A stretch of DNA of 64,000 nucleotides from Phoronis australis. Taxonomy: Eukaryota > Animalia > Phoronida. This document shows, piece after piece, positions 32,703-57,489 of this stretch. The translations under genes were made by a program, and so were the position numbers. The DNA lies in assembly GCA_002633005.1 (NCBI GenBank), contig NMRA01000234.1, positions 1-64,000 on the forward strand, given 5' to 3'. The notes under the pieces were generated by a model, which saw only the letters and a program-made list of their open reading frames with translations, was not told the DNA's origin and did not search any database. Each line of letters starts with the position of its first letter. Position 1 is the first letter of the stretch.

Positions 32703-33615
32703 TAATAGGAGGACTGTATTCTTTGATAGTTTCTTTGAGGCTGGTATTACTTTTGTGAAGGATCTTTTGCATTTTGAAAATAAATTTCTGACATGGGAGG
32801 TTTTGAAAAAATAGGTATAAGCTTTCAAATTGGATTCATTATGCTGCTTTGAGAAGTGCGATTAAGTTGAAAGCTGATCCTAAGATTTCAAAATGCATAC
32901 ATCCCCAGTCAAGCCAAATTACTAAATGTGTTTTCTAGAAATATTTTGCTTTCCAAAATTGTTTTGCCTCCTGATATAGAGTACAGCTTAACTGACATTT
33001 ACTCTAGACTACGAATTAAACAAATTTATGTTCTTCCATGCAAACTCTTGTTACCTCCTTATATTAAAACCTTTAAGTACTTCTATAATCATAGAAAAGT
33101 GTTTACAAAACTTATTTTGAAGAAGATGAACTTAGTCAGTGATGGCAAGTGTGCATCTTGTGGAACTGTTGACAATTTTAACCATATGTTTGTGAAATGT
33201 GATTCTGTGAAAACTTTGTGGTGTGAAATTCAGAAACTTTTAATTTATGTAACTGCACAACAGGATTTAATCTTAGATAAAAATGTTATTTTGCAGCATA
33301 TTTTGGATGTAATTTTGAAGATATCAATACCATATTAACTATTTGCCAGTATTTCATCCATAAATGTTCTAGAAACCAGATTATTCCTAGATATTCACAA
33401 TTTCAATGTTTCTTGTATAATTATTGTAAAGTAAGGAATATACAACCCCGTAAAACTGCCTTTTGGGAAACCATCAATGCCTATTTATTTTAGACCAACC
33501 GAGAACTTCTATTATTTATGTGTGTGTGTGCGTGTGTGTGTGTGTGCCTGTGTTTCATTTGCAAAGATCTTATTGTTTGTAAATTTTAGTGTATTTAGAA
33601 ATAAAATGTTAAAAA
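32703..33615 (+). mobile_element. 5'-truncated L1/Tx1-like LINE (3' end of ORF2, zf-RVT)
   Basis: KCASCGTVDNFNHMFVKC (C-x2-C-x7-H-x4-C); AATAAA and short A tail at ~33600-33617; 11-bp target-site duplication aactgtaaaat at 32692 and 33616. Confidence 0.8.
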
Positions 33616-34653
33616 AACTGTAAAATGCCATTTATATACGACATGTATTCCATAATGAACATAGACTGTGTGCTGTGAGCGAAACTCCATCTTTAGAGAC
33701 AGAATGGAGAGTTGGATTGGCAAAAATTGTCATTTATTATGACAGAGCAATGAAAATAATACAAAAACACAGTCTCTTGAAAGACACGCGTACAAATGTC
33801 ACCCTGAATACATAGGGGCAAAATCAAAGCTGTAAGAATAGAACATTAAAAATAAGATAAACATAGTGTATTGGATTAAAGAGGTAGAAAAAAAATACAT
33901 TATTTGTTGGTGTTAACAGTAAATGAAACTGGTGAAAACTGATACTATCTGACTGACAAAGAAATATTTAATGAAATAAATGTGCTAGCCAATTGAAATG
34001 ATGATTGGTGATGTCATATCCCACATGACCAGTGACCCACTCCAGCAAGTGATGTCATGGGGTATGGCGAAACAGCACATCACAAGGTGAATTGAGAAAC
34101 CATCCAAAAGTTGCAAAAGGGGTTTCGGTTGGGGAGGACGAGTCCATATGCTCACATCAATATAATTTAACTTGTAAAATCTAATTTATGTTCTACACAA
34201 TTCTAATTCACCCTAGCATATCTTGGAACAATGCATAAAGATCCACTAAATAGTGTCGTGTATTCAGCCTGTACAACATTCTTTGATAAATTAAGTTTGA
34301 AAATATAAAAAGGTGTGTATTAGTAAAGTATGCAGTTTTCAATGACGTTTTGTAGGTACTTAACTCACTGTTTAGATTTGTATTATGGCTGTCATTACCT
34401 TGTGGTAATCCTTTAAGTGTATTAAGCAAAAGACTGTTAGAAATCCCAATAATAGAGGTCGCGCCACTACAAAATTTGAAGAGAAAGTGGTTCGCAAACT
34501 CCTGGATTTGCTGACTATATGACCTCAGAGGAATATGTACAAACGTAAAGGAATGGCTGACCGAATGTGGTTTGTGTAGTACAACATGTTCAACTTGTCT
34601 CTTACCCAAACTGATGAATGCTCATAGTCACTAAGTCATTTTCATTGGTACAG

Positions 34654-34903
34654 GTCAAGGTCAGTGTACCGGCTTTGACATCTGCTCTTGCTCTGTGGGC
34701 TGGACTGGATCATCATGCACTACAGCTGACTGTCCTGATGTGAAGCAGTGTAGTCAACAAGGGACATGCAGTGCACCAAACACCTGTGAATGTAACCAGG
34801 GATACACTGGTCAGGCCTGTGACCAACTGATTTCCTGCCCGGAGTTTAACGACTGCAGTGGCCACGGAGTGTGTTTCAATGTGACTGGAGTCCTGTCCTG
34901 CAC
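34654..34903 (+). CDS. Exon 25, EGF repeats (last shared exon)
   Basis: gtacag|...tgcac|gtgagt; QGQCTGFDICSCSVGWTGSSC...CSGHGVCFNVTGVLSC, ends in phase 2. Confidence 0.9.
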
Positions 34904-37230: not shown

Positions 37231-37245
37231 GCTGTGTTTTAATTT

Positions 37246-39231
37246 TTATGCGCCCACATATTTATATGTGGACGCATTATGCTGTCATCTCTGTCCGTCC
37301 GTCCGTCCGTCCGGGCGGCGTCCGGCGTCCGCTGCTCTATCTCCAAAACCCTTTGACATACGTTAATGAAATTTGGCACATATGTTCCATTCATGAATGG
37401 GACGGCATGTGCGAACTTTTGGACGGATCCGACTACCGGTGTGCCCCCTAGTGGCAATTTTAGTTTTTTACGCTTACCTTTGTATCTTCAAAAGTCCTGA
37501 ACGGATTTTCATGAAATTTGGTATGTAGGCACGTATTAGTGAGATGACGCTATCCTGCCGTTTTCAGATGGATTCGACGTAGTTTGCGCCACCTAGTGGC
37601 CATTTTTAGTGTTTTCGAGTCTGTTTTTGTGCGTCCACCCCTCTATCAACCAAACCGCTCAAAGGATGATTGTGAAAATTGGCATGTATATGCTTACTAT
37701 GTAGAGGACGGTTGACGATGATTTTCCGACGATTTCGACTACTGTGGCGCCTCCTAGTGGCAGTTTTGTTTTTTTTCGCCTATGGCTGTATCTCCTAAAC
37801 CGTTCGCAGGATCTTTACGAAATTGTGTAAGTATATTTATATGATGTTAACAACGGAAGATGACGACTTTTGGACGGATCCGACTACCGGTGTGCCCCCT
37901 AGTGGCAATTTTAATTTTTTTACGCTTACCTTTGTATCTTCACAAGTCCTTATTGGATTTTCATGAAATTTGGTATGTAGGCACCTATTAGTGAGATGAC
38001 GCTATCCTCCCGTTTTCAGATGGATTCGACATAGTTTGCGCCACCTAGTGGCCATTTTTAGTGTTTTCGAGTCTGTTTTTGTGCGTCCACCCCTCTATCA
38101 ACCAAACCGCTCAAAGGATGATTGTGAAAATTGGCATGTATATGCTTACTATGTAGAGGACGGTTGACGATGATTTTCCGACGATTTCGACTACTGTGGC
38201 GCCTCCTAGTGGCAGTTTTGTTTTTTTGCGCCTATGGCTGTATCTCCTAAACCGTTCGCAGGATCTTTACAAATTGTGTAAGTATATTTATATGATGTTA
38301 ACAACGGAAGATGACGACTTTTGGTCGGATCCGACTACCGGTGTGCCCCCTAGTGGCAATTTTAGTTTTTTACGCTTACCTTTGTATCTTCAAAAGTATT
38401 GAACGGATTTTCATGAAATTTGGTATGTAGGCACCTATTAGTGAGATGACGCTATCCTACTGTTTTCAGATGGATTCGACGTAGTTTGCGCCACCTAGTG
38501 GCCATTTTTACTGTTTTCGAGTCTGTATTTTTGCGTCCACCCCTCTATCAACCAAACCGCTCAAAGGATGATTGTGAAAATTGGCGTGTATGTGCTTACT
38601 ATAAGGAAGACAGCTGACAATGATTTTCAGACGATTTGGACTACTGTGGCGCCTCCTAGTGGCAGTTTTGTTTTTTTGCGCCCATGGCTGTATCTCCCAA
38701 ACCGTTTGCAGGATCTTTACTAAATTTAGCAAGTGTATTTATGTGATGTTGACAACGGACGATGACGACTTTAGGATGATTCTGATTACCGGTATGCCTC
38801 TAGTGGCAATTTTAGTATTTGCCTCTAGTGGCAATTTTAGTATTTTACATTGACCTCTGTATTTTCATAGGTCTTCAGGTGTATACTTTGTGTTACTTCG
38901 TGACTGTGAAGGAAAAGTTCCAAGTAGAAATTTGTTTCTGGCATTCTAATGCTGTGCTAATCTCGTATGTTGGTAAATTTGTTTTTAATTCTATGTTTCT
39001 GTGGTGCTTTAAGCAACTGGTGTATAGGATGTGCTTGTATTATGAAGATTACTCACATTTTGCCCCTAGCCTATTGAGGAGACAATGACCATGCCTTTCC
39101 ATTTTGCAAAGTACAACATACTACATATATGCCCTCTACTGGCCACTTTATGGTACCAATAAACAACCCTAGAAGGATACCGTATGCGGTGCAATTGTGG
39201 GCGCATTTCAACGCTCTGCGTTGCTCTTGTT
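37246..39231 (+). mobile_element. Young non-autonomous Helentron/DINE-1-like element (HINE) with internal tandem array
   Basis: 5' TGCGCCCACA within a hairpin (tgcgcccacata-ttt-atatgtggacgca); (GTCC)5 at 37293-37312; 3' inverted copy TGTGGGCGCA at 39196-39205; 3' stem-loop caacgctctgcgttg; ends ctcttgtt in T-rich site. Confidence 0.8.
37417..38850 (+). repeat. ~451-bp higher-order tandem repeat (~3.1 units), each made of three ~145-161-bp subunits
   Basis: ggacggatccgactaccggtg recurs at 37421, 37872, 38323 and degenerately at 38774. Confidence 0.9.
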
Positions 39232-39728: not shown

Positions 39729-39898
39729 TTGTGACCTTGGCTATTCCGGTGCTAACTGTTCTGTGACGGACTGTTCTTCTATCAACAACTGTTCTGGTAA
39801 TGGACAGTGTGACCAGCCCAATGTCTGTACATGTCATCCTGACTATAAGGGGACGACATGCAGCGAATTCTCCTGCGAGGCACTCAACTACTGCTCGG
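39729..39898 (+). CDS. Exon 26A, EGF (module A)
   Basis: ctttag|...ctcgg|gtaaga; CDLGYSGANCSVTDCSSINNCSGNGQCDQPNVCTCHPDYKGTTCSEFSCEALNYCS; 170 nt, phase 2-1. Confidence 0.9.
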
Positions 39899-40190
39899 GT
39901 AAGAAGACGCAATATTTTATCCACAATTTATCTGATTTCTTTGCTGTTTCATGACGTTCTACTTGTATTAGTTGTTTAGAGGCCGTTGCATCAAACTGTT
40001 GTTTTTTGTCATTAAATTTCTTTTTTTTTGCAAAAGACATAGAGGCCCAGCTGTCCCAGATGTTTGTGACTATTTCAGATGGATTGCTTTCTTTTTGTGT
40101 TTGCAGTTTCACCCAAATGTGAGACATGATGCAGTGAGTGAAGGTGTAATTTAGTGTTGTAGACTGACCATGTTTGTTTTGCATTCACAG

Positions 40191-41959
40191 GACATGGGCT
40201 GTGCATAGCTCTGGATGTGTGTAACTGTACTGAAAGCTGGAGTGGCTCCACTTGTAATGTGGCTAGCTGTAGTCAAGTTAACGACTGTAGTGGTCGGGGT
40301 CACTGTATTGCGCCTGATGTCTGCGACTGCTTCGGGACATACGATGGACCAGCGTGTAATGAGGATATTGGACCAAACAAGTATCCACCTGCTATACAAG
40401 CAGTACCCGTTGTAACACTACCTGACAATGTCAAAACGGGGAGTTTTGTGGTGAACATAAGTGCAACCGACAATGATTCTAGTGGAAAGAATACTTTACT
40501 GGGCTTCAGTCTTATGTCTCACACTGACAAATTTTCCATTACCAACCAGGGACAAATTTCTACTTCGTCTGCCATTGACTTTGATTATATTGAAGAGAGG
40601 CGTCTGTCATTGCTTGTGAAGGTGTATGACCACGGTTTGCCAAGACTCACTAATTCGACCACTGTAACCATCATGGGCCTGGACGATAATGACAACTGTC
40701 CAAAGTTTACTCACGTGCCAACTGATCCACTTGAGTTACCTGATGACACACCTGTGGATACCAAGATTTACTCATTCTATGCAGTTGATAAGGATTCTGG
40801 CAACAATTCATTAGTCGTCTATGATCTGCTGTCTGATACAGGAAATCAGAGTCCATACTTTTCTATCAACATTTCTGGTGATGTCATGACTGTCACAGAA
40901 CCTCTCGTCACAGGCAGATACCTGCTCACTGTTATAGCAAAGGACTCTGCACTCTATCCTTGCCAGACCAAAGCGGGATTGACTGTCCTGGTCACCATGT
41001 CTAGGAACATCACTACTCAATATCCAACAACACCTGGAACATCATTAGCACCAACAAATGCTACAACACTGTCTACTATGGAAAATGCCAAATCAACAGT
41101 ATACACTTCAGAACCAACATCACTCATTGATACAGCAACAACTGGTCGCATGACATCAGTGGCACCAACAGAATTTACCTCTCTGTCTAGTACAGAAGTC
41201 TATCAATCTACTTTTCAAACTTCAGAATCAATGTTGGACACTTCAGAATCAACAATGGAGACGACATATGATTCTTCAACATCAACTGTTGACACAGTAA
41301 CAACAGCTCGTGTGACATCAATGGCACCAACAGAATTTACCTCGCTGTCTAGTACATCAGCCTACCAATCTACTTTTCAAACTTCAGAATCAATGTTGGA
41401 CACTTCAGAATCAACAATGGAGACGACATATGATTCTTCAACATCAACTGTTGACACAGTAACAACAGCTCATGTCACATCAATGGCACCAACAGAGTTT
41501 ACGCAGCAGTCAAGTATGGAGACCTCAGAACCATTGGTGGATACTTCAGAGCCAATAACGAAGACTGCAACTGAGATCACAGAACGAACCGACACAAAAA
41601 CAGTAACTCGCATGGCATCAACAGAGCCAACAGCACATTCTAGTGTAAAATTCTACCAATCGACTATGGAACCTTCAGAATCAACAGTAAAGGCTACATC
41701 TAAAGTCACCGATACAGCCATGACAACATACGTAGAGACTTCAACTCTCACCAAGACGACCCCTACAGCTTCTGGTGGTGTGAGCGATGCTGTGAAGATC
41801 ATCATTAGTAGTACCATCCCACTAGTGCTCTTGCTTATCATCTTCATTGTAGCCATTGCCTTTTGCATTAAGAAGAACACAGTAAGAAAAAGCAGGCCCC
41901 ATTTTCCTTATGCAACGTATAGGAATCCCACCTATGCTCATAGGGCCAGTTATATTTAG
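40191..41959 (+). CDS. Terminal exon 27A: EGF, 2 cadherin repeats, ~265-aa S/T mucin stalk, TM, tail ...YRNPTYAHRASYI*
   Basis: tcacag| acceptor; 580-aa ORF; cadherin motifs ATDND, VKVYDHG.P, DDNDNCPKF, AVDKDSG; TM IIISSTIPLVLLLIIFIVAIAFCI. Confidence 0.93.
41151..41500 (+). repeat. Coding 162-bp (54-aa) tandem repeat in the module A mucin stalk, ~2.2 copies
   Basis: unit starts at 41151, 41313, 41475 (TS(V/M)APTEFTSLSST..YQSTFQTSESMLDTSESTMETTYDSSTSTVDTVTTA). Confidence 0.92.
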
Positions 41960-42666
41960 GGGACTGTATGAGGCATAACTTCTGTATCATGCATTTAGAT
42001 TTTTTCTAAATTACCTGAGCTATAAATTGATAAAATCAGTGCTTTTTATATTAGGTGCTTCTAATTTTAAGGTATTAAGACATGATTTATAAATTTCCTT
42101 TTAATGGAAATTGCTTCTCAGTGATAGACAATAATGAGAAAGAATATTATGAAGAAATTATCATAGTTATTGGGTATGGGTTGTTGTTATTGATATATCT
42201 TGATATGATAAAATAGTTTGTAACTTCTTGTAGTCGTTTTTTGACATTTAATCTGTGCCATTGTTTTAACATAGGGTTTTTTCAGTTGTATGCCATTATG
42301 TTAAAATCTCAGATTTTGACTTAAACACATTCCTCAAATACGATTTTTACTGTACATCAACTTCTGCCATGATTTGCCCTGTATCAAAGTAGATTGTTTT
42401 GTGGGAAGGAATGTTTCAAACTGTCTCATTCCATGTGCTGTGATGGCATTGTTTGCCATTCACATATCTGTAGTCATGGTTTGTTTGTGTGTAGTCTCTG
42501 AAGTCAACCATATGGGCGATATTTTGTTGATCTATACAGTGTACATGTGTAGGATGAGTTTTTCTTTCAATGGATTACATGTCAGTCATGTATTGAGCAA
42601 AGGATTTAACTTTTGCCTCTTAGTTTTGTTTGTTATATTAGTTCACATTGTATTGTTTACTCCAGA

Positions 42667-42672
42667 AATAAA
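42667..42672 (+). terminator. Candidate polyadenylation signal for module A
   Basis: AATAAA about 700 nt after the 27A stop, followed by T-rich sequence. Confidence 0.3.
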
Positions 42673-43224
42673 ATATTTGACTTATTTATTTTATTTTTGG
42701 ATGACTTTCTATTGTCTGCCATATACATAAGACTGTTGTGGCCTGAAGCATGGCACTGGTACAAAATGAGTGATAAATGTTACTAATCTGACACATGCAA
42801 TTGTATGATACAAATGTGGGATATTTGATAATAACAATCTTGGTAGTATTTAGTGCTTTAAAACTCGAAAGAGAAGCAAGTAAAGTATAACCACATGTGG
42901 GCCATACCGACCCACTTTTATCTGATGTCATCTTTGGCGGTAAGTGATGATGTGAAAATTGTTCGATGGTCTTGTGTGTTGGAGTCATTGATGACACGGT
43001 CTGTGTAGAGTTGTCATCAAGTGCATATAGTTATGACCGTGGTGTTGCCTTTTGGAGCAATTAGTGACAAGTTTCATAATTTTGTTATAGCCTCTTTACT
43101 ATGATCTTTCAATCCAAAAAATCCATGAATCTTGAGGCTTAAATATTAGTGATCTTGACATGATGCAAATATCCCGACTGTATCCGACACTGGTTAATAC
43201 ACGGCCATTTTGTTCACTTGCAGA

Positions 43225-43800
43225 AGGTAACTTTGTGTGTCCATATGCATATATTTTGCATGAACTTGTCATCCTGTCCAGTTGTGTTTTTGGAGAAGAG
43301 TGTTTCCGAATGATATCTAAACGACCGATTGGTGCATTTCAGTGAAAGTTAACACAGGTATGTGATGTCAATGCTTTGGCACCACTAAGGCATTCCGTAG
43401 TGGCCATTTGTTTTCGGAGGAAGAGTGTTTCTGGATAGTGTCTGATACAAAGGTGTATGTGACAGCATTGTGCCAGCATCAGTTGATTTTCGAGCAAGTT
43501 GGACTATAGCAGCAGATCTGAGTGGACATTTTGTCAGGTCATCCTGTTTTCCAGTTGTGTTCTCAATATCTCATAAACCACAGGTCAGGTATTGATGAAA
43601 CGTGGCACAAGGATCTTTAATTTCACTAGGCTACTTTTCAGTCTACCTCTGCAGATGATGTATAGAGAACTGATGGACTGATTTCAATGAAACATGACTC
43701 GGAGATATGTGACAAAAGTGTGCCAGTATGAGTCAATTTTTATCGAATTAAACCATTGCTGCGCCCTCTAGTGCCCATTTTGGTCTTGACGGGTTTTTCA
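43225..43800 (+). mobile_element. Old HINE-related fragment
   Basis: subunit-like blocks (gatgaaacgtggcaca, gcgccctctagtgccc). Confidence 0.45.
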
Positions 43801-43806
43801 GTACTT

Positions 43807-43958
43807 TTTATGCGCCCACATATTTATATGTGGACGCATTATGCCGTCATCNAGTATGCCCTCTACTGGCCACTTTATGGTACCAATAAACAACCCTAGA
43901 AGGATACCGTATGCGGTGCAATTGTGGGCGCATTTCAACGCTCCGCGTTGCTCTTGTT
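43807..43958 (+). mobile_element. Second young HINE copy: both ends present, interior replaced by assembly gap (n at 43852)
   Basis: 43807-43851 matches the 5' end at 37246-37289; 43855-43958 matches the 3' end at 39128-39231. Confidence 0.85.
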
Positions 43959-43959
43959 A

Positions 43960-45690
43960 GAGAAGAGCATTTCAGTGTAATTGCCAAAGAACCAATTTAC
44001 GGATTTTTTAATGAAATTTACACAGAGAAAAAGGATGGCATTGCACCAGAACTATTTGGTTTCCAGGCAATTTCAAATTCTACAGCTTCCCTTGTGGCAA
44101 CTTGAACTGGTTGTCCTACCATCCAGTCGTTTGCTCGATGTCTCATTATTTTGATGTGGAGCATTACTAGTGGGTACATGCCAGTTTTCAATTTGCTCTG
44201 TTCCCAGGTCCAGGAGATAAGGCTTTTCAATATTTTTGTGATGGTTGTTTCTGAATGATGTATAAAGTACTGACTGACATGTTTCAATGAAACCCCCCAT
44301 TCTAACTTCCATATTGCATAATGGAAAACATCCTTAAAAATTTTTTGCTGTCCATCCAAATAACATATTCTTTGGAATGATTAATTCTCAAACCAGACAT
44401 TTCTGCATAATTATTTACTCAGAACTTCCGTAGTGGCTTCCAAGCTACGCCGAGAACCATCTAAGAAAAAAGTTCTGTCTCATCAGCATACTGAGTAAGT
44501 ATAAATTCATCATTTCCTATTTGAATGCCTTTAATTGACTGTTCTATCTTGTTTTGCCATCATAACTAATATTTCAACATATAAAATGAAAACATATGGA
44601 GAAAGAGGATCACCTTGTCCACAGCCCCTGTGCAGAGTAAAACTTCTGGACAAAATACTGCTTTGGACAATGTATGACAGTGGACAATTATACAAAAAAT
44701 TTATCTTTGTAACCGACAACAGCCCCGGTATACCATTTTTTACTGAAATTTACATCCCTTTTACAAATCCCGTCTGATCCGGGGAAATAAAATATCCATG
44801 TACCTTTTTCATTTGTCTGGCAATACATCCGGATCCGACCTTGTGAACACTGTTGAGCAAAGTTATTGGTCACCATTTTTATGAATGTTTTGGCCTTATC
44901 TGGCTTTGGAATTAAAGTTGCAATGCCCGTTTTTTGCGTGTTTTACATTTTGATTTTTTCATAACTTTCATTTTTATGTCTTAAAACAAAATAGTCTAAA
45001 TCTTTCTACTAAAAATTGAAGAAAATCATTTGTGAAATCATCTGACACGGGTCTTTTCATTTTTTGAATTTTTCAATACTGACACAATTCTTCATAATTT
45101 ATTTTATGTGTCCCTCAAGGTCCTGCGCAAAATTATCCTGAAGCTTATTTGAAACAATAAGGTTTTCTGTTTCTCTTTTTCACGAAAAATTATTAGAGTA
45201 AAGTTTTTCATAAAAATTCGTGGCCACCTCGAGTATATTTTCTTGATCTATAATTAGTTATACACTTTCCAATGCTATTTCATACATAATATTGTTATAA
45301 AAATGTCTCGATGCTAAACTACAAAAATACTTTGTTGGGCGTTGCTCTTCCTGTATACATTTTGCCTGGATCTGACGAAATGCCCTTTTAATTTCTGTGA
45401 CCATATCTCTTTTTTTAAATCTTCAAAAGTTTTATCATCAACACCTTGTTCTAAATTCTCTATTTCTTTTTTTTGTATTCACTCTTTTGACTATCCGTTT
45501 TTCTTTATTTTTTCTTATTTCCATCTGTAGCATATCCTAAAATGGTTGATCATGTATAACAAACTGAATCTCACTGTCTAAACAGTATACTCTAATTGCA
45601 TATTGCTTTTTAACATTAGTTATTTTGAACGGTGTTTACATATTCCTTGTCATTTGGAAGTGAATTAATAAATTTCCATAATCCTTTACT
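43960..45690 (-). mobile_element. Decayed L1/Tx1-like LINE ORF2
   Basis: minus strand SRSFTLHRGCGQGDPLSPYVFILYVEIL...GIQIG...QYADET; many stops. Confidence 0.8.
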
Positions 45691-47652
45691 TTAGTAACTT
45701 GTCTAAATTTTGTGCTTAACAAGACCCCAATGCAACAAAGTTTTAGAAATCAGAAAAAGTCAAGCTTTGATTGAATCAAAAAAGTTTAACATGTTGTAAA
45801 ATAGAGAAACTGTGTATTTTAGAGTATTATTATTAGTAGCTAACCGGCCTTCACTTTGTGCCACAAGTGGCGGGTATCTTTGAGGGATTTCCAAGAGCCC
45901 CATGTAGACCACTGAATTCATGGAATGGGCTAATGTGCACTCTGTAGAATCTTTGGACCTCTGATAGTTGACTGATGGAGAATTTTCACCAGACCAAGTT
46001 CCCTCATGGTAAGTGCCGAGTGCATTGTGGTGTCAATGACAAATTTTTTCGCATTACCAAAGTCACTGATATTAGCTGCAGTTTTGAATAGGGTCGTTCC
46101 GGATTACTCAACAATAGAACTTGCCTTTGTTCCAGAGACAGGAAAGCACATGACCTGACGTTTTGTTAATCAAACACATTTTTGTGTATCTTGATGTTGG
46201 GTAGGCAAAGAATTTCTTATCACGCATCCATGGGTGTTTGTCCAGTTTATCAAATTCTCTAACATCAGTGTTGCAGCCCACAGCACCGCACTAATACTTC
46301 AGTGGCATTTGGAAGGACGTATTGAGTAATGCAATCGAGAAAATTTTGTAACGAATCAGACAACAGCAAATAACGTGACATTCCAGAAGCACAAAATGAG
46401 GCAACAAATGTGCCCGACATACGTTTAAGGCATTGTGGGTAAATACAGCGAGATTCGAGTGTCGCTGTGTAATCTGGGACAGCCCTATTGGTTACAACAA
46501 CTCACCTGGAATTCCACTGCTGAGCTTACTGGTTCAGGGGCTGAAACTAACCTATTATGACAAGTAAACTGGTTAAGCAAGTGCAAATTGTCTGTATGGT
46601 ACAAAATGGCAAATTGTCTGATTTTTCGATATCATGTTGCCAAAATCGGCAAATGATACAAAGTTATTGTCGTTTGATAACGTGTCTTAATAGATTGGAG
46701 TGAACCTAAATATTGCTAAATTATTTTTTATTCAAATTGAGCTTTAGCGATTCTTGAGGAACATTTTTCATAAACCTATAGTTGCACCATGGGTGGATAC
46801 TCATAATTATTAAATAATCAAAGAGTTCCTGTCGTTAGCCAATGTTTATGACCAGATGATGTCATGGTTGACTAAGCTTTGTTCTAACGAATGGAAATGA
46901 AGCTTTGGTCATGCCAAGAATTGTAAACGACACTTGACTTGATACCTCAAAATCCAACTCCGCCTAGTGGCCCAATTTTGTTGCACCCCTAGCAAATTAA
47001 TAAGGAGCCTATTTATCATAACATTGAACATACGTTTTAGGTTGTAAAAGTCACATTCCTTGCCCAATTTTCAAAATTCAAAGACTTAATCATGACTTGT
47101 ATGTTTTCACAAACTATTCAAAGTGAAAATTTAAAAATACTATTGTTGCCCCTAATATGTTGATGATGGTCTCATTATCTAGAGAACAGTAACATCAGTA
47201 GCCTGAGGCAATTTAACTGAACGGAAGAACATCTGGTGTCTTTGGCAAATTCTGTTGTGCGCAAACCAGTTGAGTTGCCCAATCTCTACTGGTTTGGGTG
47301 TCAACATAGGATTCTTTTCATTAGTTGAGTCGAAAAATATCTCCCCCTGTGCACCCCTGGACTTCAACTTCTAAAATGCATTTTTACAAAGAAAAATACA
47401 TTAACAAGCCGAAAAAATGTCCCACATGTGTTTTATGGAAATTAGTACCACTTTTCGTTATGTGACAAATCTTACTTTCTTTTTCCTATAATTGAACAAA
47501 TCAAGTGTCAAACCCTGATGTTTTGAAGGTCATCTGATTTGTGTTATATGGTTACTTACAATCAATACCACACTGGAATTGTGCATAAGCCAAATGAATA
47601 GAGACAGTAAATGATTGCAGAAATGTGGGCAATCGTTGGGTGCTGATGTCAC

Positions 47653-47902
47653 CATGCGCGCACCCAGGGGGGGCTCGAACAATCCCCCCCATTTGACGAA
47701 GTGGGCAAAAAGGTCCACGTGTGAGAAACAAAAAGTCCGAGAAAATGAGACAAAAGTCCATTAAACAAGCACAAACGCACAATTCGCAGTGGTGCGCCCG
47801 TTTATTTTTTATTTTTTTTAGTCCGCCGGCTATTTTGTTACCAAAAGGTCCACAACGTTAGGAATTCGAGCCCCCCCATGTTGAAGGCTGGTTGCGCGTA
47901 TG
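47653..47902. mobile_element. MITE (hAT-like, 5-bp TSD)
   Basis: TIRs catgcgcgcacccag / ctggttgcgcgtatg; internal ggggggctcgaa / ttcgagcccccc; TSD gtcac on both sides. Confidence 0.7.
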
Positions 47903-47914
47903 GTCACTGCTTAG

Positions 47915-49300
47915 ATGTTCCATCGCTCCATGAAAGTTCCATACAACTCGTCATTGTCCTCTTCTCCATCCAGTTCGCAAACATCAGTGGGCAAGAGATC
48001 AGTCTGTGCATTTCGTAAGATAGGAACTCACGACCACACAGGTTCTAACACTCCTTCGCCAATTCGCATCGATCCTCCCTTCTCCTTCGTCATAAGGTTT
48101 TGGTTGTTCAGTTATAGGTTCACAAGTGCACTTGTACAAAGCAACATGGTAATTTATTTGTTGTATGTGAGGTTGCAGTGCAGACAGGCACGGGGGGAAG
48201 TCGAGTAACGTCAGTCTTGGACTTGTAAGTGAGAATATCATCTTCACCAACCATTTTGCACAACATCTTGGCGTGTGTAGCATCTATCGATGACTCACGA
48301 CTTTGACCGTACATGAGACAGGTGTGAACTCTTCCAACTCTTTCAAAACTTCAGAACTTGCATCCCAGTGAAAGCCAAGTTGCCTGAATGCATGGTGAAA
48401 TTTCGGATTATTTTCTAGATCCTTATGGGTGTCAACCTTTCCTTTTATATAAACGCACTGGTGCAATCTTCTTCAGTGTATAAATAAAACCCAATTAGAG
48501 CTTCACAGTCTTTTCCCAAGAATTTTGCCAGGTTGGAGCGATTCAGTAGTCGTTGATGTTCACCAGACCATGTATCTATACAGCTTTATCGCGTGAGCAT
48601 GATGCTGCTGAATGAGAAAGACATTGTCAGTGGTCCTGACGTCAGCGTTTCTGTACCCAAGTGAGACAGCATACTAGAGGTTTTCTTGTGTCAGTTTCTT
48701 CTTGGTTGTGAAAATTTAAATGTAAAGATGTCTCTTAATACATTTATTCATATCAGCTCATCTACATTTCCTTGACCTTAAGACGTAAGAGCGACTTTCT
48801 TGTTGGATGAATCCGTAGTCTTGAGCTTATTCCAACTTATAGGTTGAAAAAAAACTGTCCGTTTCACTGTCCTGCAAGCATGCTATGAATTGTGTCTGCA
48901 GCTTTACCCACAACATCGTCTCTGAGGACATCTTTTTCTACGTCCACTGGTTAAGTAGCTCCAGAAACGAAAGAATACAGCTTTTCCACATCCGCAAAAG
49001 TGAATTAGTTTGTGAAATTCTGGCTGTTATGGTCTGCTGGATAGCATCCTCACCTTTCTTTATTTCTGCTCTTTCCTGTTTAAAACGTGTTCCCTTTTTT
49101 GGAAAGACCGACCACATCAAGAATTTTCTAGTAAAACTGCGCTCTGGCAGAGGTTGAGTGTGCAGCAACAGCTTTAGGATGTGTCTTCTATGCTGGTTAT
49201 ATGAACATCCAGTCAATCGATATATCTGAACGTGGACATGTGTGAGCATTGTAGCTGGGCTAAAGTTATGATCGTAATTGAACTTTAATAAAAAATTCTA
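47915..49300 (-). mobile_element. Decayed DNA-transposon coding remnant with XPG/H3TH-like motifs (Academ-like)
   Basis: minus strand NQEETDT, VRTTDNVF, ALIGFYLYTEEDCTSAF.KGKV, ELEEFT..MYG, LPPCLSALQPHIQQINY; frameshifted. Confidence 0.6.
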
Positions 49301-49689
49301 CATGCAATATTATACCAAAACTATTAAAACTATTTACTGTAGAAATTAACATATGGACGCTGTATGGGGCTTTTGATACTGTGGTGTACTGCTCTGGTTT
49401 GGCCGTTAGGTGAAAATGCAACTGCGTTCCTGGAGTACGAAAGGGTAGCATTAAGGTATTTGAGCAGGTCGCCTTCATTTGATGACCAAAAATGTGGTTG
49501 ATGAAGCTTCATATCCACCTTAATTTTCACAAGGTCTTTTTCATGTTGTATGGATTTTGTTGGTTGCTACCAACTTTTTCTGGGCTGTATTTAATTTTTT
49601 TGAATTGAAATTGTTACAAGTTAGTAGTGAACAGGGAAACCAAATGTTTCAAGTGGCAATTTATCCAATTTGAATTAATGTAATTTAGT

Positions 49690-50192
49690 CACCATATTTC
49701 TCTGCGTGTGCGCGCATGTATCATGCTATCTCTTTTGCAAAAGTACAGATGCCTGATTATCTCAGAGAGACATTTTTATGCCAAGTCCTTTCCCTTTGGT
49801 GTGCTTTTAAAATCCATGGAACAATAGAAAGTGACATGAATACAAGTGACCGACACAATATAAAGCTAACAATAGCTCGGCGACGACTTTCAGGCTAATC
49901 TGACGAATACTGTGTCCCCTAGTGGCAATTTCATTTTTCCATTTTCATTTGTTTCACTGTAGGTCCATTGTTAAACCTCACCGACTTTTAAATAAAGATT
50001 ATTGCTACTCACTAGTGTTACTTCCTTGGCAGGTTTTTATGAAACTTGTTAAAATAGCTCTCTACTAGGGAAACAATGGCACGGTTTTTGCTCCATCTAG
50101 TATCCTTTTTATGGTGCAAATAAGCAGCCCTTGAAGCACACTGTTTGTGGTGCATTTGTGGGCGCACTTCAATGCTCCGCGTTCCTCTTGTT
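49690..50192 (+). mobile_element. Degenerate HINE-family copy (3' end retained)
   Basis: gtcccctagtggcaattt; tgtgggcgcacttcaatgctccgcgttcctcttgtt. Confidence 0.65.
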
Positions 50193-50984
50193 GCGATTCT
50201 AATGAACACCCACGAGAACTGAGCATATTGTTTGCGGGGCAGCTGTGGTCACATATTAATGCTTCAGGCTACACTTGTCACGATTATATTAAAGTGGATG
50301 ACCACTGTGACAAACATTCAATGGAAATTTCATCTTAACCCAGAATTGTATCTGAACAAGGTACAACCTCTAGTTGACTTCTGTAGATTCACTACTCAAA
50401 TGCTTATCATTGGTCAACAAAATAATCTGAAGCATATGTATGTTGCATTGCACTAACAAAAATGTTGGTTGATTACTGGGTAATGTTTGCCTAATATAGT
50501 TGAGAAATTAATGTAGTGCTTAATTGTGGAATCTTGTGTATGTGAAGCTGGTGGGGGCATAATTACATGCCAGTTATATGTTGTTTTATAGTTGCTTTCC
50601 TGGTCGTTAGAACATGTTACTAATTACTCTTTGAGACGAGACAGTTGTAATAATTGTAACTTTCTTATGTCGGAAATGTTGTACTCGTGTCGGAAAATTT
50701 AATTGTCAGTGGTTTGCTGTTAAAATAATTTGATTTAGATTGCAAATAGTATCTTAAGTTTGTTCTATTTTTCAATTCCTATCATCTGGTTATTAATTAG
50801 TTGTTGCCTGTCTTTTGCTTGTACCCAGCATTAATGAGTCACCTCTAAAAAGATTAATGGAGCACTAACTGACATACAGCTACTTTGTTCAGAGTTGCTA
50901 TTTATTTTGTGAAAATGGAAATGCCTGACGTGTAAGTTCAGTGTTGTGTTATGGCCTGAGAGTTGATATTGGTCAAGGAACTCT

Positions 50985-51397
50985 GGCCACATTTATACGA
51001 GAGACAGCTGACTCTGCGCAGCTAACATAGAACAGCTGATCGGGTGCAAGTGTGTATGTGTAAACACGACTGACACGGAGCAAGTGACACTGCGGCAGCC
51101 AGTTTTTGACACTGATAGAGCATCAGTTGCACTCAATCAGTTGCTCCAGTCTCAACTGCACGTCAAAACACAACTGGGGCAGGGCGGGAAGGGATCATCT
51201 TTCAATGCACTTGCACAATAGCGTGTATTTGGGTGAACAGTTAGCATTCCACGAGATTTGGTCATTCGCTATCGTTTATGCGAGCATGTGCAGACAGTCT
51301 TCCTGTGCTGATCCAGTTTGCAATCTAATGTCATGTAAATGCGAGTCGCGCTGTGACAACTGACAAGGTGACAACTGTCTCTCATGTAAAAGTGGCT
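50985..51397. mobile_element. MITE (PIF/Harbinger-like TIRs)
   Basis: TIRs gccacatttatacgagagacagctgac / gtgacaactgtctctcatgtaaaagtggc; second copy at 63685-64000. Confidence 0.7.
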
Positions 51398-51445
51398 TTT
51401 AACAGTTTAATTCACTCATTAATGAATACTATTATTCTTCCTCAG

Positions 51446-51615
51446 CTGTGACCTTGGCTATTCCGGTGCTAACTGTTCTGTGACAGACTGTTCTTCTGTC
51501 AACAACTGTTCTGGTAATGGACAGTGTGACCAGCCCGATGTCTGTACATGTCATCCTGGCTATAAGGGGACGACATGCAGCGAATTCTCCTGCGAGGCAC
51601 TCAACTACTGCTCAG
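51446..51615 (+). CDS. Exon 26B, duplicate of 26A (module B)
   Basis: cctcag|...ctcag|gtaagg; 170 nt, same phases; 3 aa differences from 26A (I>V, N>D, D>G). Confidence 0.85.
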
Positions 51616-52894
51616 GTAAGGAGGCACCATTTTATCCACAACTTAGGTGATTTCTTTGCTGTTTCATGATGTCCTACTTGTATTAGCTGTTTAGAGGCCG
51701 TTGCATCAAACTGTTGTTTTTTGTCATTAAATTTCATGTTTTTGTAAAAGACATGGAGGCCCAGCTGTCCTGCGAGGCAACTCAACTTCTGCTTGGGTAA
51801 AATCTTTGCAACATTTTCTTATTTTTAAAGTATGACTGATTGGTTACATAACTTGTTGGACATTTAATAAAAGATTGTAACTTGTATTTGCTAAATTTGA
51901 CAATATTTGATCAAGCCTTATAATTGCTAGTTTTTCTGACAAATGTTACGAGAGCCTCGATTCAAGTGTAGAGTACTTCTAACCTCATTTCTATTACTGC
52001 CACAATAACATATTGTAAACACGGTCATAATCATGATGCAACAGAGTTACAGCTTTACACCCAAGCTCTGAGCTCGACTGTCCTCAAGTTGAGGTACCCT
52101 TAGTGACCTGTGAAATTCACGATATACTGAAGACGAAGACGTGATTACCTAGCACTGATCAGCACCTGTGTGGCTGTGCTTGTGCAAGACATTTTATTTA
52201 TAATTGTAATTTGACTGAAAAATTATAATGACCTTGAAGTCAAGTCATGACCTCGTACCACAGTTAAGAGCTAATATGAAAAGAGCAACAAAGCTGTTAC
52301 CAGACAGGTTATCAGCATACTAGTGTCATTCAAACAAAAAGCCTTGAATTTAAACAAATTGGTGACCAGGAACAGGTTAAAAATTTTGGTCTACTCGTTT
52401 CCTAGAGTGCCTTATATACTTCGTCAATAAATTTGTACATATCCCGCTGTCTGGAAGCCTGCATCAGCAGAAGAGCATTTACTGCAGTAACTGTGGTTTC
52501 ATGGCAAACACTGGCTAGAATTAATTGACATGTTTTGGACTAAAACTGATAGTTATTCAAATTATTTGTCTTCTTAAATTGAATTCCTCGTAAAAAGTTA
52601 AAGTTAGTTTCATTTCTCTGAAGAAATACGATAAAAAATTAGTAAAAATAGGTGTGTTAGTTTTCAGTTCTCGGATACCTGTTGATGAATGGTTTTAGTA
52701 ACTATTTGAACTCTTGATGCCACACAAAGACCATGTGAATATTTAACAATGGACTACAGTGATTTCTGGATTTAGCCTTGATTTAGAAAGCGCTGTCGTC
52801 TGGCGTTGAAGCCTAACGAGAGTTTTCGTAACTGGCAACTTGGACAAAATTTCTTGGTAATAACTACCACACTCTCAAACAGTGGCACACTTAA

Positions 52895-54569
52895 AGAAGC
52901 ATGCCACCCAAAAAACAACCTAATTTGTATCAATTTAGATCGAGTAATTCTACTCCATAAGGGCACGTACAGTTGCGTTACCTGACGGCAGACGGAGGTG
53001 TTGAAATTATCCAATGACGTAATTGGTTTCACACGCAGTCTGTTCAGCAGTTCACAACACGGGTTACTGGTTTTAGCTTATTGCTTGAATTAATCGTTTA
53101 ACACCAATAAATCGTCAAACTTCAATGTAAAACCCTTAAAAATACACAGAGTTCTTATAAAAACGTGTTGTTTTATTTCGCTGTTACGGATTTATTGGTG
53201 TTTGGACACACCGTAACCTACAAAGTTCGGCAGGCTAATAAGGTCCGTAGCAGGAGTTTGGGGTCTGTTCGGAGATAAATTCTAAGCATTTTCCTTGAGA
53301 TACAGACAGGAGAACCTAGATCTGTGTTGTTTAGACTTGTTATTTTTTGAGTTCTAAACACACGAAACGATTGTTGTCCTGGCCAGTGGCTCAGAGTCCG
53401 ATCAGGCCCGGTCGCGGCCGGCGGGACTGACTCGTTATCCCGGCCAGTGGCTCGGAAACCGATCCGTCAGACATCACGGACATAAATCATCCAGAGTTGG
53501 AAACTAAACTTCCAGTCAAGAAATACTAGTGAGCCAAAGCAGTAAAGTGCACGTGATTAGTTGGTGAATTAGCCACGAAACTGCAAATCTACTTACTCGT
53601 CGGGGGTCGCGAAGTCAGGTTCCGCTTTGGCCACAGAACCGTCACGGGTACATTGACAATCATTATTTGAATAATGTAAAATAATGTAGATAAAGATTCC
53701 CCTAACACCTGTCCGTCGGGATAGAAATCGAGTTGTTTCACAACAGTTTCTGTCAGCAAACACTGAATTAGCATGAGCTCGGCACGGCCTCAGTGTCCCG
53801 TCAATTAGTTTTATTACACATAAAGCCGTTAACGCAGTGATTTATTCATTGCTGGCTTCTCAAATCATTTGCACTCACGAACACTCCAAAGGCGTTCCAA
53901 ATTGTATCTAATGAGACAGACTTTGTTTCAGTTTCATATAAGTATTGGTATAAGGGAGACTCAGAATGATTCATTTTGAAACAGAACGCTCAGTACTAAA
54001 CGTCAACACGGCAACTCGCAATCCCACCCTTAGACGAGCTCATCCCAACGAAGACTTTGCAGGTGGATCGTTAAGTTTCACAGACTATCAGTTCGAACAG
54101 GAATACAGTGATGAAGTAATACTAGAGAGGTGCCATGAACAATCTCAGACAACAGAACGTATGGATAGTTATTTGGTAAGCCGGCATTCGTCAGGCACTG
54201 TTCCGCGACGACTGCAGGCCACAGACACGGAGATGTTTCACGGCCTCATACTTGCTATTTACAGCGTACTTTTAATTCTTCACTACCGCGAGCTACTTCC
54301 TAAGCATTTCGGGCTCTCGAGGAAGTCGAAAAAACGATATACCTGCTTTCCTCGCAGTTGCATAGTTTGTACAAGCGGGAACGATGCACCGCAGCATAGC
54401 GGCATTAACTCTGCAAATGAACCACTGACGTTGCTGCGTCGTTTCTCACCTTCTTCACAGGTTAACGCGACACCTCTCGGCAAGGTAAGGTCGACCGCAT
54501 GCAAGGCGATGTGGATATAGACCGATTAAGACGGCAAAAAAGACTAATTAAATCCGGTGGCATTCTCCT
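52895..54569. mobile_element. Kolobok-like internally deleted DNA transposon
   Basis: TTAA at 52891-52894 and 54570-54573; TIRs agaagcatgccacc / ggtggcattctcct (12/14 match); THAP remnant on minus strand. Confidence 0.7.
54212..54397 (-). pseudogene. THAP zinc-finger N-terminus of a transposase (disrupted)
   Basis: MLRCIVPACTNYATARKAGISFFRLPREPEMLRK*LAVVKN*...HLRVCGL; THAP C-x4-C...FF.LP...(W>stop)...VC pattern. Confidence 0.7.
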
Positions 54570-55215
54570 TTAATGTAAATGTGAACATAGGGATGGATAA
54601 TTGTGGACTTTCTGGACTCTTTAGGTTTACTAACGTGGGTAGTGCTGTGGTGACAAAAAAAATTGAAAAAGCTTGTTGGGCCAGTCACCTTTTTCACCGT
54701 TCAGTTCCAATTAGCTTGAATACCTTGGTCGAAATTGGTAACCATTACTGTGCAGTTTTGAAAACAATAGCTGATCAGTAACATAATTCAAGCTACAATT
54801 TTTAATTAGAGAATTGTATCTCCATGCAAAACTCATTTCTTACCAAAAGGTAATAAAAATAAGCTTATCTCAGTGACTCATTTGTGCATTACAATATAGC
54901 TCATGCAGTTCACTCAAAAATGTGCTAGCAACTTAATGATCAGGTTTGTGTGGAACCCTGAATTAAGTAAGCCCAAAAAGCTTGAATAATATCATTCAAG
55001 CTTGAGTAAGCAGCATTGATAGTTGGGTTTAATTATTATCAAAAAGTTCAGATATCAGAAGACTTGAGGCATGCATGTGGTCCCCTTTATTATGATCGTA
55101 TCTGCTTTATACCATATGAATTGCCTTAGGCCTGTCAGTGCGATCTTACCCCGAAAAAGGGGCTTTATATAGCCATAGTAATTGACGGATTGAACAGGTT
55201 CCACATTGTTTGCAG

Positions 55216-56390
55216 GACATGGCTTCTGTCAATCCATGAACCTTTGCAACTGTAGCCAGGGGTGGAGTGGGTCTACGTGTAACCAAGCTAGCTGCAGTCA
55301 AGTTAACGACTGTAGTGGTCGGGGTCAATGTATTGCGCCTGATGTCTGTGACTGCTTCGGGACATACGATGGGCCAGCATGTAATGAGGATATTGGACCA
55401 AACAAGTATACACCTGCTATACAAGCAGTACCTGTTGTAACACTACCTGACAATGTCAAAACGGGGAGTTTTGTGGTGAACATAAGTGCAACCGACAATG
55501 ATTCTAGTGGAAAGAATACTTTACTGGGCTTTAGTCTTATGTCTCACACTGACAAATTTTCCATTACCAACCAGGGACAAATTTCTACTTCGTCTGCCAT
55601 TGACTTTGATTATATTGAAGAGAGGCGTCTGTCATTGCTTGTGAAGGTGTATGACCACGGTTTCCCAAGACTCAGTGCTTCGACTACTGTAACCATCATG
55701 GGCCTGGATGATAATGACAACTGTCCTAAGTTTACTCACGTGCCAACTGATCCACTTGAGTTACCTGATGACACACCTGTGGATACCAAGATATACTCAT
55801 TCCATGCAGTTGATAAGGATTCTGGCAACAATTCATTAGTAGTCTATGACCTGCTGTCAGATACAGGAAGTCCAAGCCCATATTTTTCTATCAACGGTTC
55901 TGGTGATGTCATGACTGTTGTTGAACCTCTCGTCTCCGGCAGATACCTGCTTATGGTTGTAGCAAAGGACTCTGCTGTCTATCCTTGCCAGACCAAAGCA
56001 GGATTAATTGTTCTGGTGTCCAAATCGTACGGCACCACTACACAATTGCCAACTACACCTGGAACGTCAGTGCCACCAACAGAAGTTCCGTCACGACCTA
56101 CTGTTTCAGAAGAAGTCTCTCCATCTATAGTGGTGACTACCGCTGATGTCACTGCACCTACAACTCCGTCAGCACCAACCACGACAGTCCCCGAGATGAC
56201 AACCACAACTTCTGGTGGTTTGTCTGACACCGTCAACCTTGTCATTGGCATCACTATCCCTGTTGTTGTCTTGCTTATTGTGGTCATTGTAGTCATCATC
56301 TGTTGCATGCGAAAGCAGGCAACGAGGAAACGCAGGGCCAACATCACGTATGCAGCACATACAAATCCCACATATGCTGGTGGAGAATGA
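55216..56390 (+). CDS. Terminal exon 27B: EGF, 2 cadherin repeats, ~70-aa P/T stalk, TM, tail ...HTNPTYAGGE*
   Basis: ttgcag| acceptor; 394-aa ORF, intact; paralogous to 27A. Confidence 0.88.
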
Positions 56391-56682
56391 TGTCGCTTGA
56401 GATTGTAATTTCATTGCAGTTACATGGATTTAGAAAGTTGAGAATGGAACAGTGTCTTTTCTCGAATATAACAGCAATATGACATTTTGTAATCAGTGCT
56501 TCTTACTATTTTTTTATATGACAGTTAATATAATGCACATTTCAGATTTAGTTGTGATAAAAGAAATTACTAAATTAATAAGTGCTGCTACAGATAGTGT
56601 TGTTTTTATTTTGTTTTGGCTGACTTAGAATCCCGGTTATGACAGTCTAAAATGTAGTCACATTCACAGTGGGCTTCAAATC

Positions 56683-56904
56683 CAGAGGCAGATCTACGGG
56701 GGAGGGGGGTTCAGGGGCTTAAAACCCCCCTTGAGACCGGATCAAAAATGTCACCAGGAAAACAAAATAAGCTACTAAAAGCCAAACAAATCTTACACGG
56801 GAGGTGGGAAACCCCCTCCCGACCTTCCATCTGCTCGGCACTATGTGTCTCGGATTCGCGCGAATCACAAACGCCCCCTTACTGAAAACGTAAATCTGCC
56901 ACTG
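56683..56904. mobile_element. MITE (hAT-like, 5-bp TSD) downstream of the module B stop
   Basis: TIRs cagaggcagatctacg / cgtaaatctgccactg; TSD aaatc on both sides. Confidence 0.75.
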
Positions 56905-57489
56905 AAATCCCATTTCATAGAATGAAAAAAGAGTTTCATGTTCATGCATGCCAAAAATGCTGTTTCATGGTTTCTCATTGTGAGTAAATATGGACTTTTT
57001 GTATTAAATTCATGGATTATCTGGAATAGAGTATTAATGAATCTTTTTCAACACATTAACTTCTTAATATTGCACAATGTCCGGAAGGACCCATGGCAGT
57101 CAGTTGATTACCTTCATAAAAAAGATTTATTCCAATTTGAACTTTGCAATTTTGACTTTACTAATTCTATTCTCATGTGGTGCTTTAAGTGTTAATTGCA
57201 TTGTTTACTAAACTGTTTTGCGTATTAGAATTTCTATTATCACCAGTTTGACACTGTTAGCCGTGTCAAAAATGCTGGTATTGATGTTCGTATTACAGAT
57301 AAATGTCATGTATGTAACTTCTGCAATCATAAATTATACAGATTTAGTTTAACCTTCAACAAATCATATACATGCATTTTGGTTCCTAAATACATTCTTC
57401 ATTAATGTACTGAGAATCTTGGTCATTTGTTATTCAGAAATATAATTTGGATTAATGTAATAATATTGTTGTTGTTTTTTGAAAAGGAT

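What the first reader, a model, noticed from the sequence alone, without database searches (positions are those of the whole stretch)
39729..56390. One ectodomain, two interchangeable membrane anchors: duplicated two-exon terminal module giving alternative C-termini
Seen: after 25 single-copy exons there are two intact modules (26A+27A and 26B+27B), each EGF-cadherin x2-stalk-TM-NPTY with valid splice sites. No copy of exons 1-25 and no start or signal exon is visible before module B. Exon 26 is 170 nt, phase 2 to 1, so including both 26A and 26B shifts the frame. Phase-compatible paths are 25-26A-27A, 25-26B-27B and 25-26A-27B. Inference: alternative splicing or polyadenylation mounts the same ~1450-aa N-terminal region on either a ~265-aa or a ~70-aa O-glycosylatable stalk. 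That would be a switchable spacer setting its distance from the membrane, coupled to different tails.
Basis: partly seen in the sequence, partly recalled or inferred. Interest (0 to 1): 0.82.

Follow-up and report, generated by a model that had tools for sequence, protein, structure and literature searches.

The report
One receptor, two swappable membrane anchors
A large animal cell-surface gene ends in two back-to-back copies of its last two exons, both transcribed and spliced, so one outer region is likely mounted on either a long or a short stalk predicted to be sugar-coated, each with its own tail; this is a new example of a known splicing design.

Summary
Twenty-five exons (191-34903) give 1446 open codons. 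Two intact modules follow: 26A+27A and 26B+27B. Each exon 26 is 170 nt, and using both shifts the frame. The gene start lies outside the window; amphioxus relatives have 1000-2500 more residues upstream. RNA reads (4 runs, 2 studies) cover both last exons and their 3' UTRs, on the sense strand in the three raw-read runs. Reads join the end of exon 25 to an exon 26 beginning with the B-type base (22, 15 and 8 reads), and join exon 26 to both 27A and 27B. The N at 43852 lies inside a high-copy mobile element whose flanks continue an older repeat in register, so a hidden paralogue is unlikely. The modules are an old duplication: stalk, membrane helix and tail have diverged, while the EGF-cadherin middle is likely homogenised by gene conversion. 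Verdict: a real duplicated 3' cassette pair, a known kind (PGRP-LC, CG42235, pip, LAMP2), in an uncharacterised VWD-EGF-cadherin family. The junction 25-26A was not seen directly. The route 26A-27B is ambiguous. The regulated spacer switch is untested.

The parts
191..34903 (+). 25 shared upstream exons, 1446 codons: Cys-rich and unassigned beta-rich region, VWD, teneurin-type EGF repeats; gene start is outside the window
34654..34903 (+). exon 25, last common exon; donor at 34904
   Evidence: its last 29 nt are the consensus of RNA loose ends before exon 26
37240..39231 (+). HINE-like non-autonomous element with ~450-nt tandem units, in intron 25
39729..39898 (+). exon 26A, 170 nt, EGF, phase 2 to 1
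40191..41959 (+). exon 27A coding part: EGF, 2 cadherins, 265-aa S/T stalk with 162-nt internal repeats, TM, tail with YRNPTY ending in SYI
   Evidence: RNA depth in 4 of 4 runs
41960..42690 (+). 3' UTR of isoform A; AATAAA at 42667; end position approximate
   Evidence: an X1 contig piece ends at 42667 and depth falls in the bin 42506-43106
43802..43958 (+). two ends of a young HINE-like element around the single N at 43852
51446..51615 (+). exon 26B, 170 nt, own acceptor with unrelated upstream intron; first base C where 26A has T
51616..51770 (+). ~155 nt of intron resembling the intron after 26A (exon plus this intron 93% identical), end of a likely conversion tract
51766..51800 (+). degenerate remnant of an exon-26 3' end with a 1-nt insertion and a GT donor
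55216..56390 (+). exon 27B coding part: EGF, 2 cadherins, 70-aa S/T/P stalk, TM, juxtamembrane CC, tail with HTNPTY ending in GGE
   Evidence: RNA depth in 4 of 4 runs
56391..57200 (+). 3' UTR of isoform B; end estimated from an X1 contig that runs 310 letters past 56900; poly(A) site not mapped

Best explanation
This is likely one gene, for a predicted single-pass VWD-EGF-cadherin surface protein, whose duplicated last two exons give two mutually exclusive 3' cassettes: RNA joins exon 25 to a B-type exon 26 and joins exon 26 to both last exons. Shown: both cassettes are intact and transcribed, and B is the more abundant form in the three raw-read runs. Inferred mechanism: splicing 25-26A-27A with cleavage at the poly(A) signal near 42667 gives the long-stalk form. 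Read-through past that signal with splicing 25-26B-27B (skipping 16.5 kb) gives the short-stalk form. Transcripts with both exons 26 would shift frame and stop early. Inferred history: an old duplication, with later gene conversion likely homogenising exon 26 and the EGF-cadherin middle while the start of exon 27, stalk, membrane helix, tail and UTR diverged. Predicted effect, untested: the two proteins would hold the same outer region at different heights above the membrane (roughly 65 versus 17 nm if fully O-glycosylated, at a recalled 0.25 nm per residue) and would traffic differently. A has a [FY]xNPxY-type motif and a C-terminal S-x-I PDZ-type end; B has HxNPxY, a possible palmitoylated CC and no PDZ-type end (motif names recalled).
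For: Loose ends before exon 26 have as consensus the last 29 nt of exon 25 plus C, the first base of 26B: 22 reads in X2 (agreement 0.88), 15 in X3 (1.0), 8 in X4 (1.0). GT..AG joints: 26 to 27A in an X1 contig (depth 35.8), 2 X2 reads, 1 X3 read; 26 to 27B in an X1 contig (68.3) and 11 X4 reads from 10 starts. 4 X3 reads run from a B-type exon end into the 27B start. In X4 exon 26 depth is about 30, B stalk depth 45 and A stalk depth 8, so most exon-25-joined reads must belong to B transcripts. Both last exons and UTRs are covered in 4 of 4 runs, with only one read orientation over the coding bins in X2-X4. Flanks of the gap element map independently to 20621-20728 and 20733-20835 of an older repeat copy; 1 of 500 random right flanks scored as well. 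Synonymous differences: 7/14 (start of 27), 13/183 (middle), 10/42, 10/29 (TM and tail), 2/53 (exon 26); longest identical run 131 nt, reached in 0 of 10000 permutations.
Against: No read or contig spans exon 25 to exon 27: reads are 151 nt and exon 26 is 170 nt. The junction 25-26A with T as first base is not among the 15 loose-end rows shown (3 hidden), and the 26B-27B joint is not among the 15 joint rows shown (42 hidden). X2 agreement of 0.88 means a minority of reads have some other upstream sequence. Alleles mix A and B letters in exon 26, so copy assignment is imperfect. Junction counts are small (18-19% of each raw run read). No whole genome is held and no DNA or long-read run was listed. 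Tandem whole-gene paralogues do occur in this family in amphioxus and an octocoral.
Confidence: 0.85

Rival explanations
1. Two tandem paralogous genes. Module B has its own upstream exons, hidden at the gap or collapsed in assembly, with an exon 25 kept identical by conversion.
For: Single N between the modules. Family members are in neighbouring pairs on the same contigs in Branchiostoma and Dendronephthya. The X1 exon-26 contig begins exactly at 39730, which implies two incoming paths, and leaves by two paths. Conversion is active in this locus.
Against: Gap flanks are in register within an older repeat. The right flank does not continue like intron 25 (control join scored 70 versus 104.5). 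B-type reads match the window's only exon 25 at 29 of 29 consensus letters. A T/C difference at the first base is enough to explain the contig break.
Confidence: 0.08
2. One gene, but the main route to the short form is 25-26A-27B, with 26B minor or redundant, so the real choice is between two last exons only.
For: One search lists the joint 39897 to 55215 (GT..AG) in X1 and in 11 X4 reads. A-type letters are common at 39768, 39820 and the exon end in X3 and X4.
Against: The consensus first base at the exon 25 junction is B-type C in 3 of 3 raw runs. B-type letters dominate at 39781 (19/19, 21/25, 27/27) and 39842 (8/10, 24/25, 29/30). X2 has the B letter in 17/22 at 39768. The first base lies at the edge of the shared tract, next to unrelated introns, so it likely marks the copy. 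The listed joint may be a 26B allele placed on 26A.
Confidence: 0.15
3. Both cassettes are used, but the choice is unregulated and the stalk difference is neutral drift of a repeat-rich mucin segment; the isoforms are functionally near-equivalent.
For: The A stalk grew by 162-nt internal repeats. X1 carries a 24-nt insertion in the B stalk. A share by stalk-bin depth varies only from 0.15 to 0.29 in X2-X4. No clear intronic pairing elements.
Against: Both frames, TM segments and NPTY motifs are intact despite 10/29 to 7/14 synonymous divergence in unconverted parts. Conversion stops short of stalk, TM and tail. X1 shows roughly equal A and B 3' depth (133-158 versus 106), unlike X2-X4, although contig depth is a poor measure.
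Confidence: 0.35
4. Assembly artefact: A and B are the two haplotypes of one locus placed in tandem.
For: An N lies between them, the middle parts are 91-93% identical, and the species is highly polymorphic.
Against: All 4 runs express both 3' ends. TM and tail are 67% identical and stalks, UTRs and most intron sequence are unrelated. Gap flanks are contiguous in register.
Confidence: 0.02

Closest known systems
3' tandem cassette clusters: Drosophila PGRP-LC, CG42235, pip (PMC6191721, passages read; PMC9013439, passages read)
   Same: Duplicated multi-exon 3' cassettes spliced alternatively to a common exon, each with its own 3' end. [quoted passage not shown]
   Different: Here the cassette carries EGF, two cadherins, the stalk, TM and tail. 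No docking/selector pairing was found by a simple inverted-repeat scan. The copies show a conversion mosaic.
LAMP2A/B/C (PMC9117662, passages read)
   Same: One luminal region with alternative last exons encoding different TM and cytosolic regions, with different tissue use and functions.
   Different: Unrelated protein. LAMP2 swaps only TM and tail; here about 450-650 residues, including ectodomain folds and a stalk differing nearly fourfold in length, are swapped.
Dscam duplicated exon arrays (PMC3236188, passages read)
   Same: Mutually exclusive tandem exon duplicates in a surface receptor.
   Different: Dscam arrays are internal exons and showed no gene conversion in that study; here the cassettes are terminal and largely homogenised.
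Uncharacterised VWD-EGF-cadherin proteins of amphioxus, brittle star and corals (e.g. XP_028400060.1, XP_035695383.1, XP_078611886.1)
   Same: 32-44% identity over 700-1830 residues, same domain order, stalk or SEA domain, TM, short tail (some with NPxY/F).
   Different: In 3 of 3 annotated isoform pairs compared the C-termini were the same; relatives instead occur as neighbouring gene models. Amphioxus forms extend upstream with SRCR and beta-helix domains.

Membership tests
3' tandem cassette cluster | Homologous terminal cassettes in tandem, same strand, downstream of shared exons | tested here: met
3' tandem cassette cluster | Common exon spliced to the distal cassette | tested here: met
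   45 loose-end reads in 3 runs with exon 25 consensus plus B-type first base
3' tandem cassette cluster | Common exon spliced to the proximal cassette | tested here: inconclusive
   26-27A joint seen; 25-26A with T not among displayed rows; implied by the X1 contig break at 39730
3' tandem cassette cluster | Each cassette has its own stop and 3' UTR | tested here: met
   stops at 41957-41959 and 56388-56390; UTR depth in 4 of 4 runs; AATAAA at 42667; B poly(A) site not mapped
3' tandem cassette cluster | Mutual exclusivity | tested here: inconclusive
   frame forbids a productive 26A+26B product (stop at 1515); no such joint among rows shown, 42 rows hidden
PGRP-LC/CG42235-type regulation | Competing docking-selector RNA pairings | tested here: inconclusive
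   176 inverted pairs, the 25 longest 70-90% complementary with no obvious one-docker, two-selector set; no related genomes for covariation
Uncharacterised VWD-EGF-cadherin family | Cys-rich region, VWD, teneurin-type EGFs, cadherins, stalk, TM in this order with sequence similarity throughout | tested here: met
   36% identity over 1828 columns to XP_028400060.1; Pfam
Classical cadherin | Catenin-binding cytoplasmic domain | tested here: not met
   tails are about 30 aa; no cadherin cytoplasmic family among Pfam hits
Tenascin or teneurin | FN3/fibrinogen domains (tenascin) or NHL/YD shell (teneurin) after the EGFs (recalled) | tested here: not met
   EGFs are followed by cadherins, stalk and TM; tenascin hits cover only about half of the query region
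HINE (element at the gap) | 5' inverted repeat plus GTCC-type microsatellite, internal tandem array, T-rich insertion site, high copy (PMC7492417 passages) | tested here: inconclusive
   features seen in the sequence and in hundreds of reads with mixed flanks; 3' subterminal repeat and autonomous partner not tested

The most novel reading that the evidence does not exclude
A regulated height-and-trafficking switch on a giant, ancient, unstudied surface receptor: cells choose a tall mucin stalk with an endocytic and PDZ-type tail, or a short stalk with a different tail, while ongoing, still polymorphic gene conversion keeps the EGF-cadherin part of both cassettes alike and selection shields the stalk, membrane helix and tail from homogenisation.
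Probability: 0.3. Interest if true: 0.65.

Novelty: new member of a known kind. Interest (0 to 1): 0.42.

Why it matters
It is an RNA-supported case of a multi-domain 3' cassette swap in a marine-invertebrate-type receptor family for which three searches (listings only) showed no dedicated paper. If the choice is regulated, the two isoforms make a natural experiment on how spacer length and tail motifs tune one receptor. The conversion mosaic is a compact example of concerted evolution within one gene. It also warns that such loci are easily annotated as a gene plus an orphan fragment, and that read placement can fake cross-module junctions.

Tried and rejected
No whole genome is held, so copy number elsewhere in the genome could not be checked. 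The run search listed no holder on record as RNA and no DNA or long-read run; X1 is only guessed to be RNA and X2-X4 came by species label. A candidate exon at 18757 was dropped because it has an in-frame stop and is not needed for frame. Hidden copies of upstream exons between or after the modules: none by tblastn or blastn. Docking-selector pairings: nothing convincing. The joint 26A to 27B was not accepted at face value because exon 26 alleles mix A and B letters. Alternative C-termini among annotated isoforms of relatives: none in 3 pairs; their genomic DNA could not be fetched. Atlas search with residues 60-650 of a coral homologue gave unnamed bacterial clusters at 0.91 and DUF8402/8403 at 0.81-0.84, a lead only. 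Earlier scan findings: none nearby or by sequence. Paper searches were seen as listings; passages were read only in PMC9117662, PMC3236188, PMC9013439, PMC6191721 and PMC7492417. No supplements were opened. No structure or complex prediction was run, as none would decide the question.

Full report
Observation. The window holds the 3' part of a large + strand animal gene. Splice sites located by coordinate give 25 exons from 191 to 34903 with 1446 uninterrupted codons. The first of these was found through homologue tblastn (5 of 725 HSPs lay outside my first model, all on it). It begins with an acceptor, so the start is upstream of the window. Two modules follow: 26A (39729-39898) with 27A (40191-41959), and 26B (51446-51615) with 27B (55216-56390). 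Both exons 26 are 170 nt, phase 2 to 1, and differ at 6 sites. Paths A, B and 26A+27B are open; 26A+26B+27B stops at residue 1515. Pfam finds teneurin-type EGF and two cadherin stretches in each exon 27, and VWD upstream. Stalks are 265 and 70 residues with 45% and 43% S+T. Each has a strongly hydrophobic 21-mer and a tail of about 30 residues with NPTY. No second copy of upstream exons lies downstream of exon 25.

The protein. Relatives occur in amphioxus, a brittle star, corals and, more distantly, a sponge, nearly all named uncharacterised. The B form is 36% identical over 1828 columns to an octocoral protein. Amphioxus members reach 3300-4400 residues; the two scanned carry SRCR and beta-helix domains. 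Several relatives are in neighbouring gene models on one contig, which made a two-gene reading a serious rival. Three annotated isoform pairs of relatives share their C-termini. It is not a classical cadherin, tenascin or teneurin.

The gap. The only N (43852) is flanked by 50 nt 96% identical to the start, and 104 nt 99% identical to the end, of a 2-kb tandem-repeat element in intron 25. Hundreds of RNA reads per run end at 43805 and 43958 with mixed flanks, so these are termini of a high-copy element. Its layout resembles HINE elements (PMC7492417, passages read). With the element removed, the left flank aligns alone to 20621-20728 and the right flank alone to 20733-20835 of an older repeat copy elsewhere in the window. 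The join scored 104.5 against a mean of 70.3 for random right flanks (1 of 500 as high) and 35-70 for three control joins using the other young copy. The gap therefore most likely hides only the element's interior. This is inference, since no long reads were available.

RNA. Four runs from two studies were laid; X1 is contigs of guessed RNA, and 18-19% of each raw run X2-X4 was read. Both last exons and UTRs have depth in 4 of 4 runs. Stalk-bin depths A versus B were 5.8/15.8, 15.7/38.3 and 8.2/45 in X2-X4, from one read orientation only. GT..AG joints link exon 26 to 27A (X1 contig depth 35.8; 2, 1 and 0 reads) and to 27B (X1 68.3; 0, 0 and 11 reads). On a small stretch around 26A, loose ends before the exon have as consensus the last 29 nt of exon 25 plus C, the first base of 26B where 26A has T: 22 reads at agreement 0.88, 15 at 1.0 and 8 at 1.0. 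Four X3 reads run from a B-type exon end into the 27B start and ten X4 reads do so from an A-type end. Because B dominates in X4, most exon-25-joined reads there belong to B transcripts. An X1 contig piece ends at 42667, where AATAAA begins, and depth then falls.

Limits of the RNA evidence. No read spans exons 25 to 27. The 25-26A junction with T is not among the 15 loose-end rows shown (3 hidden), and the 26B-27B joint is not among the 15 joint rows shown (42 hidden). Exon 26 reads mix A and B letters: B-type at 39781 in 19/19, 21/25 and 27/27 and at 39842 in 8/10, 24/25 and 29/30, but at 39768 in 17/22, 5/26 and 7/21. The listed 26A-27B joint may therefore be a 26B allele placed on 26A. X2's lower agreement shows a minority with another upstream sequence that I could not resolve. 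In X4 the A stalk has a 15% share, yet 0 of 43 and 0 of 39 reads carry window-A letters at 40354 and 40408 (binomial about 0.001); a converted 27A start, pooling or 3' bias could explain this.

History. Identity along exon 27 is a mosaic: 63% in the first 60 nt, 85-100% over the next 720 nt, then 63-68%. Synonymous differences are 7/14, 13/183, 10/42 and 10/29 (TM and tail), and 2/53 in exon 26. The longest identical run is 131 nt, reached in 0 of 10000 permutations. The exon 26 similarity starts at the acceptor and runs 155 nt into the intron, ending at a degenerate remnant of an exon-26 end. X1's 27A contig has 11 differences in 40279-40352 that no X2-X4 read shows, where the window's A and B differ at 3 sites. 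An old duplication with recent conversion that differs between samples fits best; purifying selection alone does not explain shared intron and synonymous sites. X1 could also be a more distant population.

Mechanism. Shown: two intact, transcribed cassettes; splicing of exon 25 to a B-type exon 26; splicing of exon 26 to both last exons. Inferred: proximal splicing and cleavage near 42690 yields A, read-through with distal splicing yields B, and frame incompatibility penalises double inclusion. A scan for competing RNA pairings found nothing convincing. Predicted from recalled motif knowledge and untested: the isoforms would differ in height above the membrane and in trafficking.

Comparison and verdict. 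Duplicated 3' cassettes spliced to a common exon are well described (PGRP-LC, CG42235, pip; PMC6191721 and PMC9013439, passages). Alternative last exons encoding TM and tail are known from LAMP2 (PMC9117662, passages). Dscam arrays lack the conversion seen here (PMC3236188, passages). An unreviewed scan note describes a similar TM-tail pair in shark CRB2, a lead only. The finding is real and is a new member of a known kind. Its extra interest lies in the size of the cassette, the nearly fourfold stalk difference, the conversion mosaic and the unstudied family. Interest 0.42.

Noticed in passing
window 61520-61936 (+) and 58897-58992 (+): An open frame of about 138 codons (acidic, Ser-rich, with a basic cluster) ending in a stop, and a short open frame ending at a GT donor; possibly exons of a following gene. 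No Pfam hit for 61523-61900 (translations).
   Followed up: partly
window 273-2030 aa region, exons 1273-17711: The unassigned upstream region has three similar short motifs and a basic RRVRR site (possible furin site, recalled). The matching region of a coral homologue resembles unnamed bacterial proteins and DUF8402/8403 in the Atlas, a lead only.
   Followed up: partly
window 50986-51396: A small element with 25-nt terminal inverted repeats ends 50 nt upstream of the 26B acceptor; a related copy lies at 63678-63985.
   Followed up: no
window 52891-54574: A high-copy transcribed repeat inside the 26B-27B intron, with reads on both strands and mixed flanks.
   Followed up: no
window 41046-41684 and 56193: The A stalk is built from 162-nt (54-residue) repeats; X1 carries an in-frame 24-nt insertion in the B stalk, so stalk length varies between samples.
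   Followed up: partly
Branchiostoma and Dendronephthya homologues (P0016, P0018, P0056, P0059, P0063, P0064, P0103, P0104): Neighbouring gene models, some starting inside the VWD domain; some could be partial 3' duplicates like this one.
   Followed up: partly
window 39411-39442: Sense reads in X2-X4 match a 32-nt intron stretch with unrelated sequence on both sides, probably a short repeat shared with another transcript.
   Followed up: no
window 18757-18860: An AG-bounded stretch in the intron between exons at 17471 and 19449 would read into a stop after 10 codons; likely chance, not checked in RNA.
   Followed up: no
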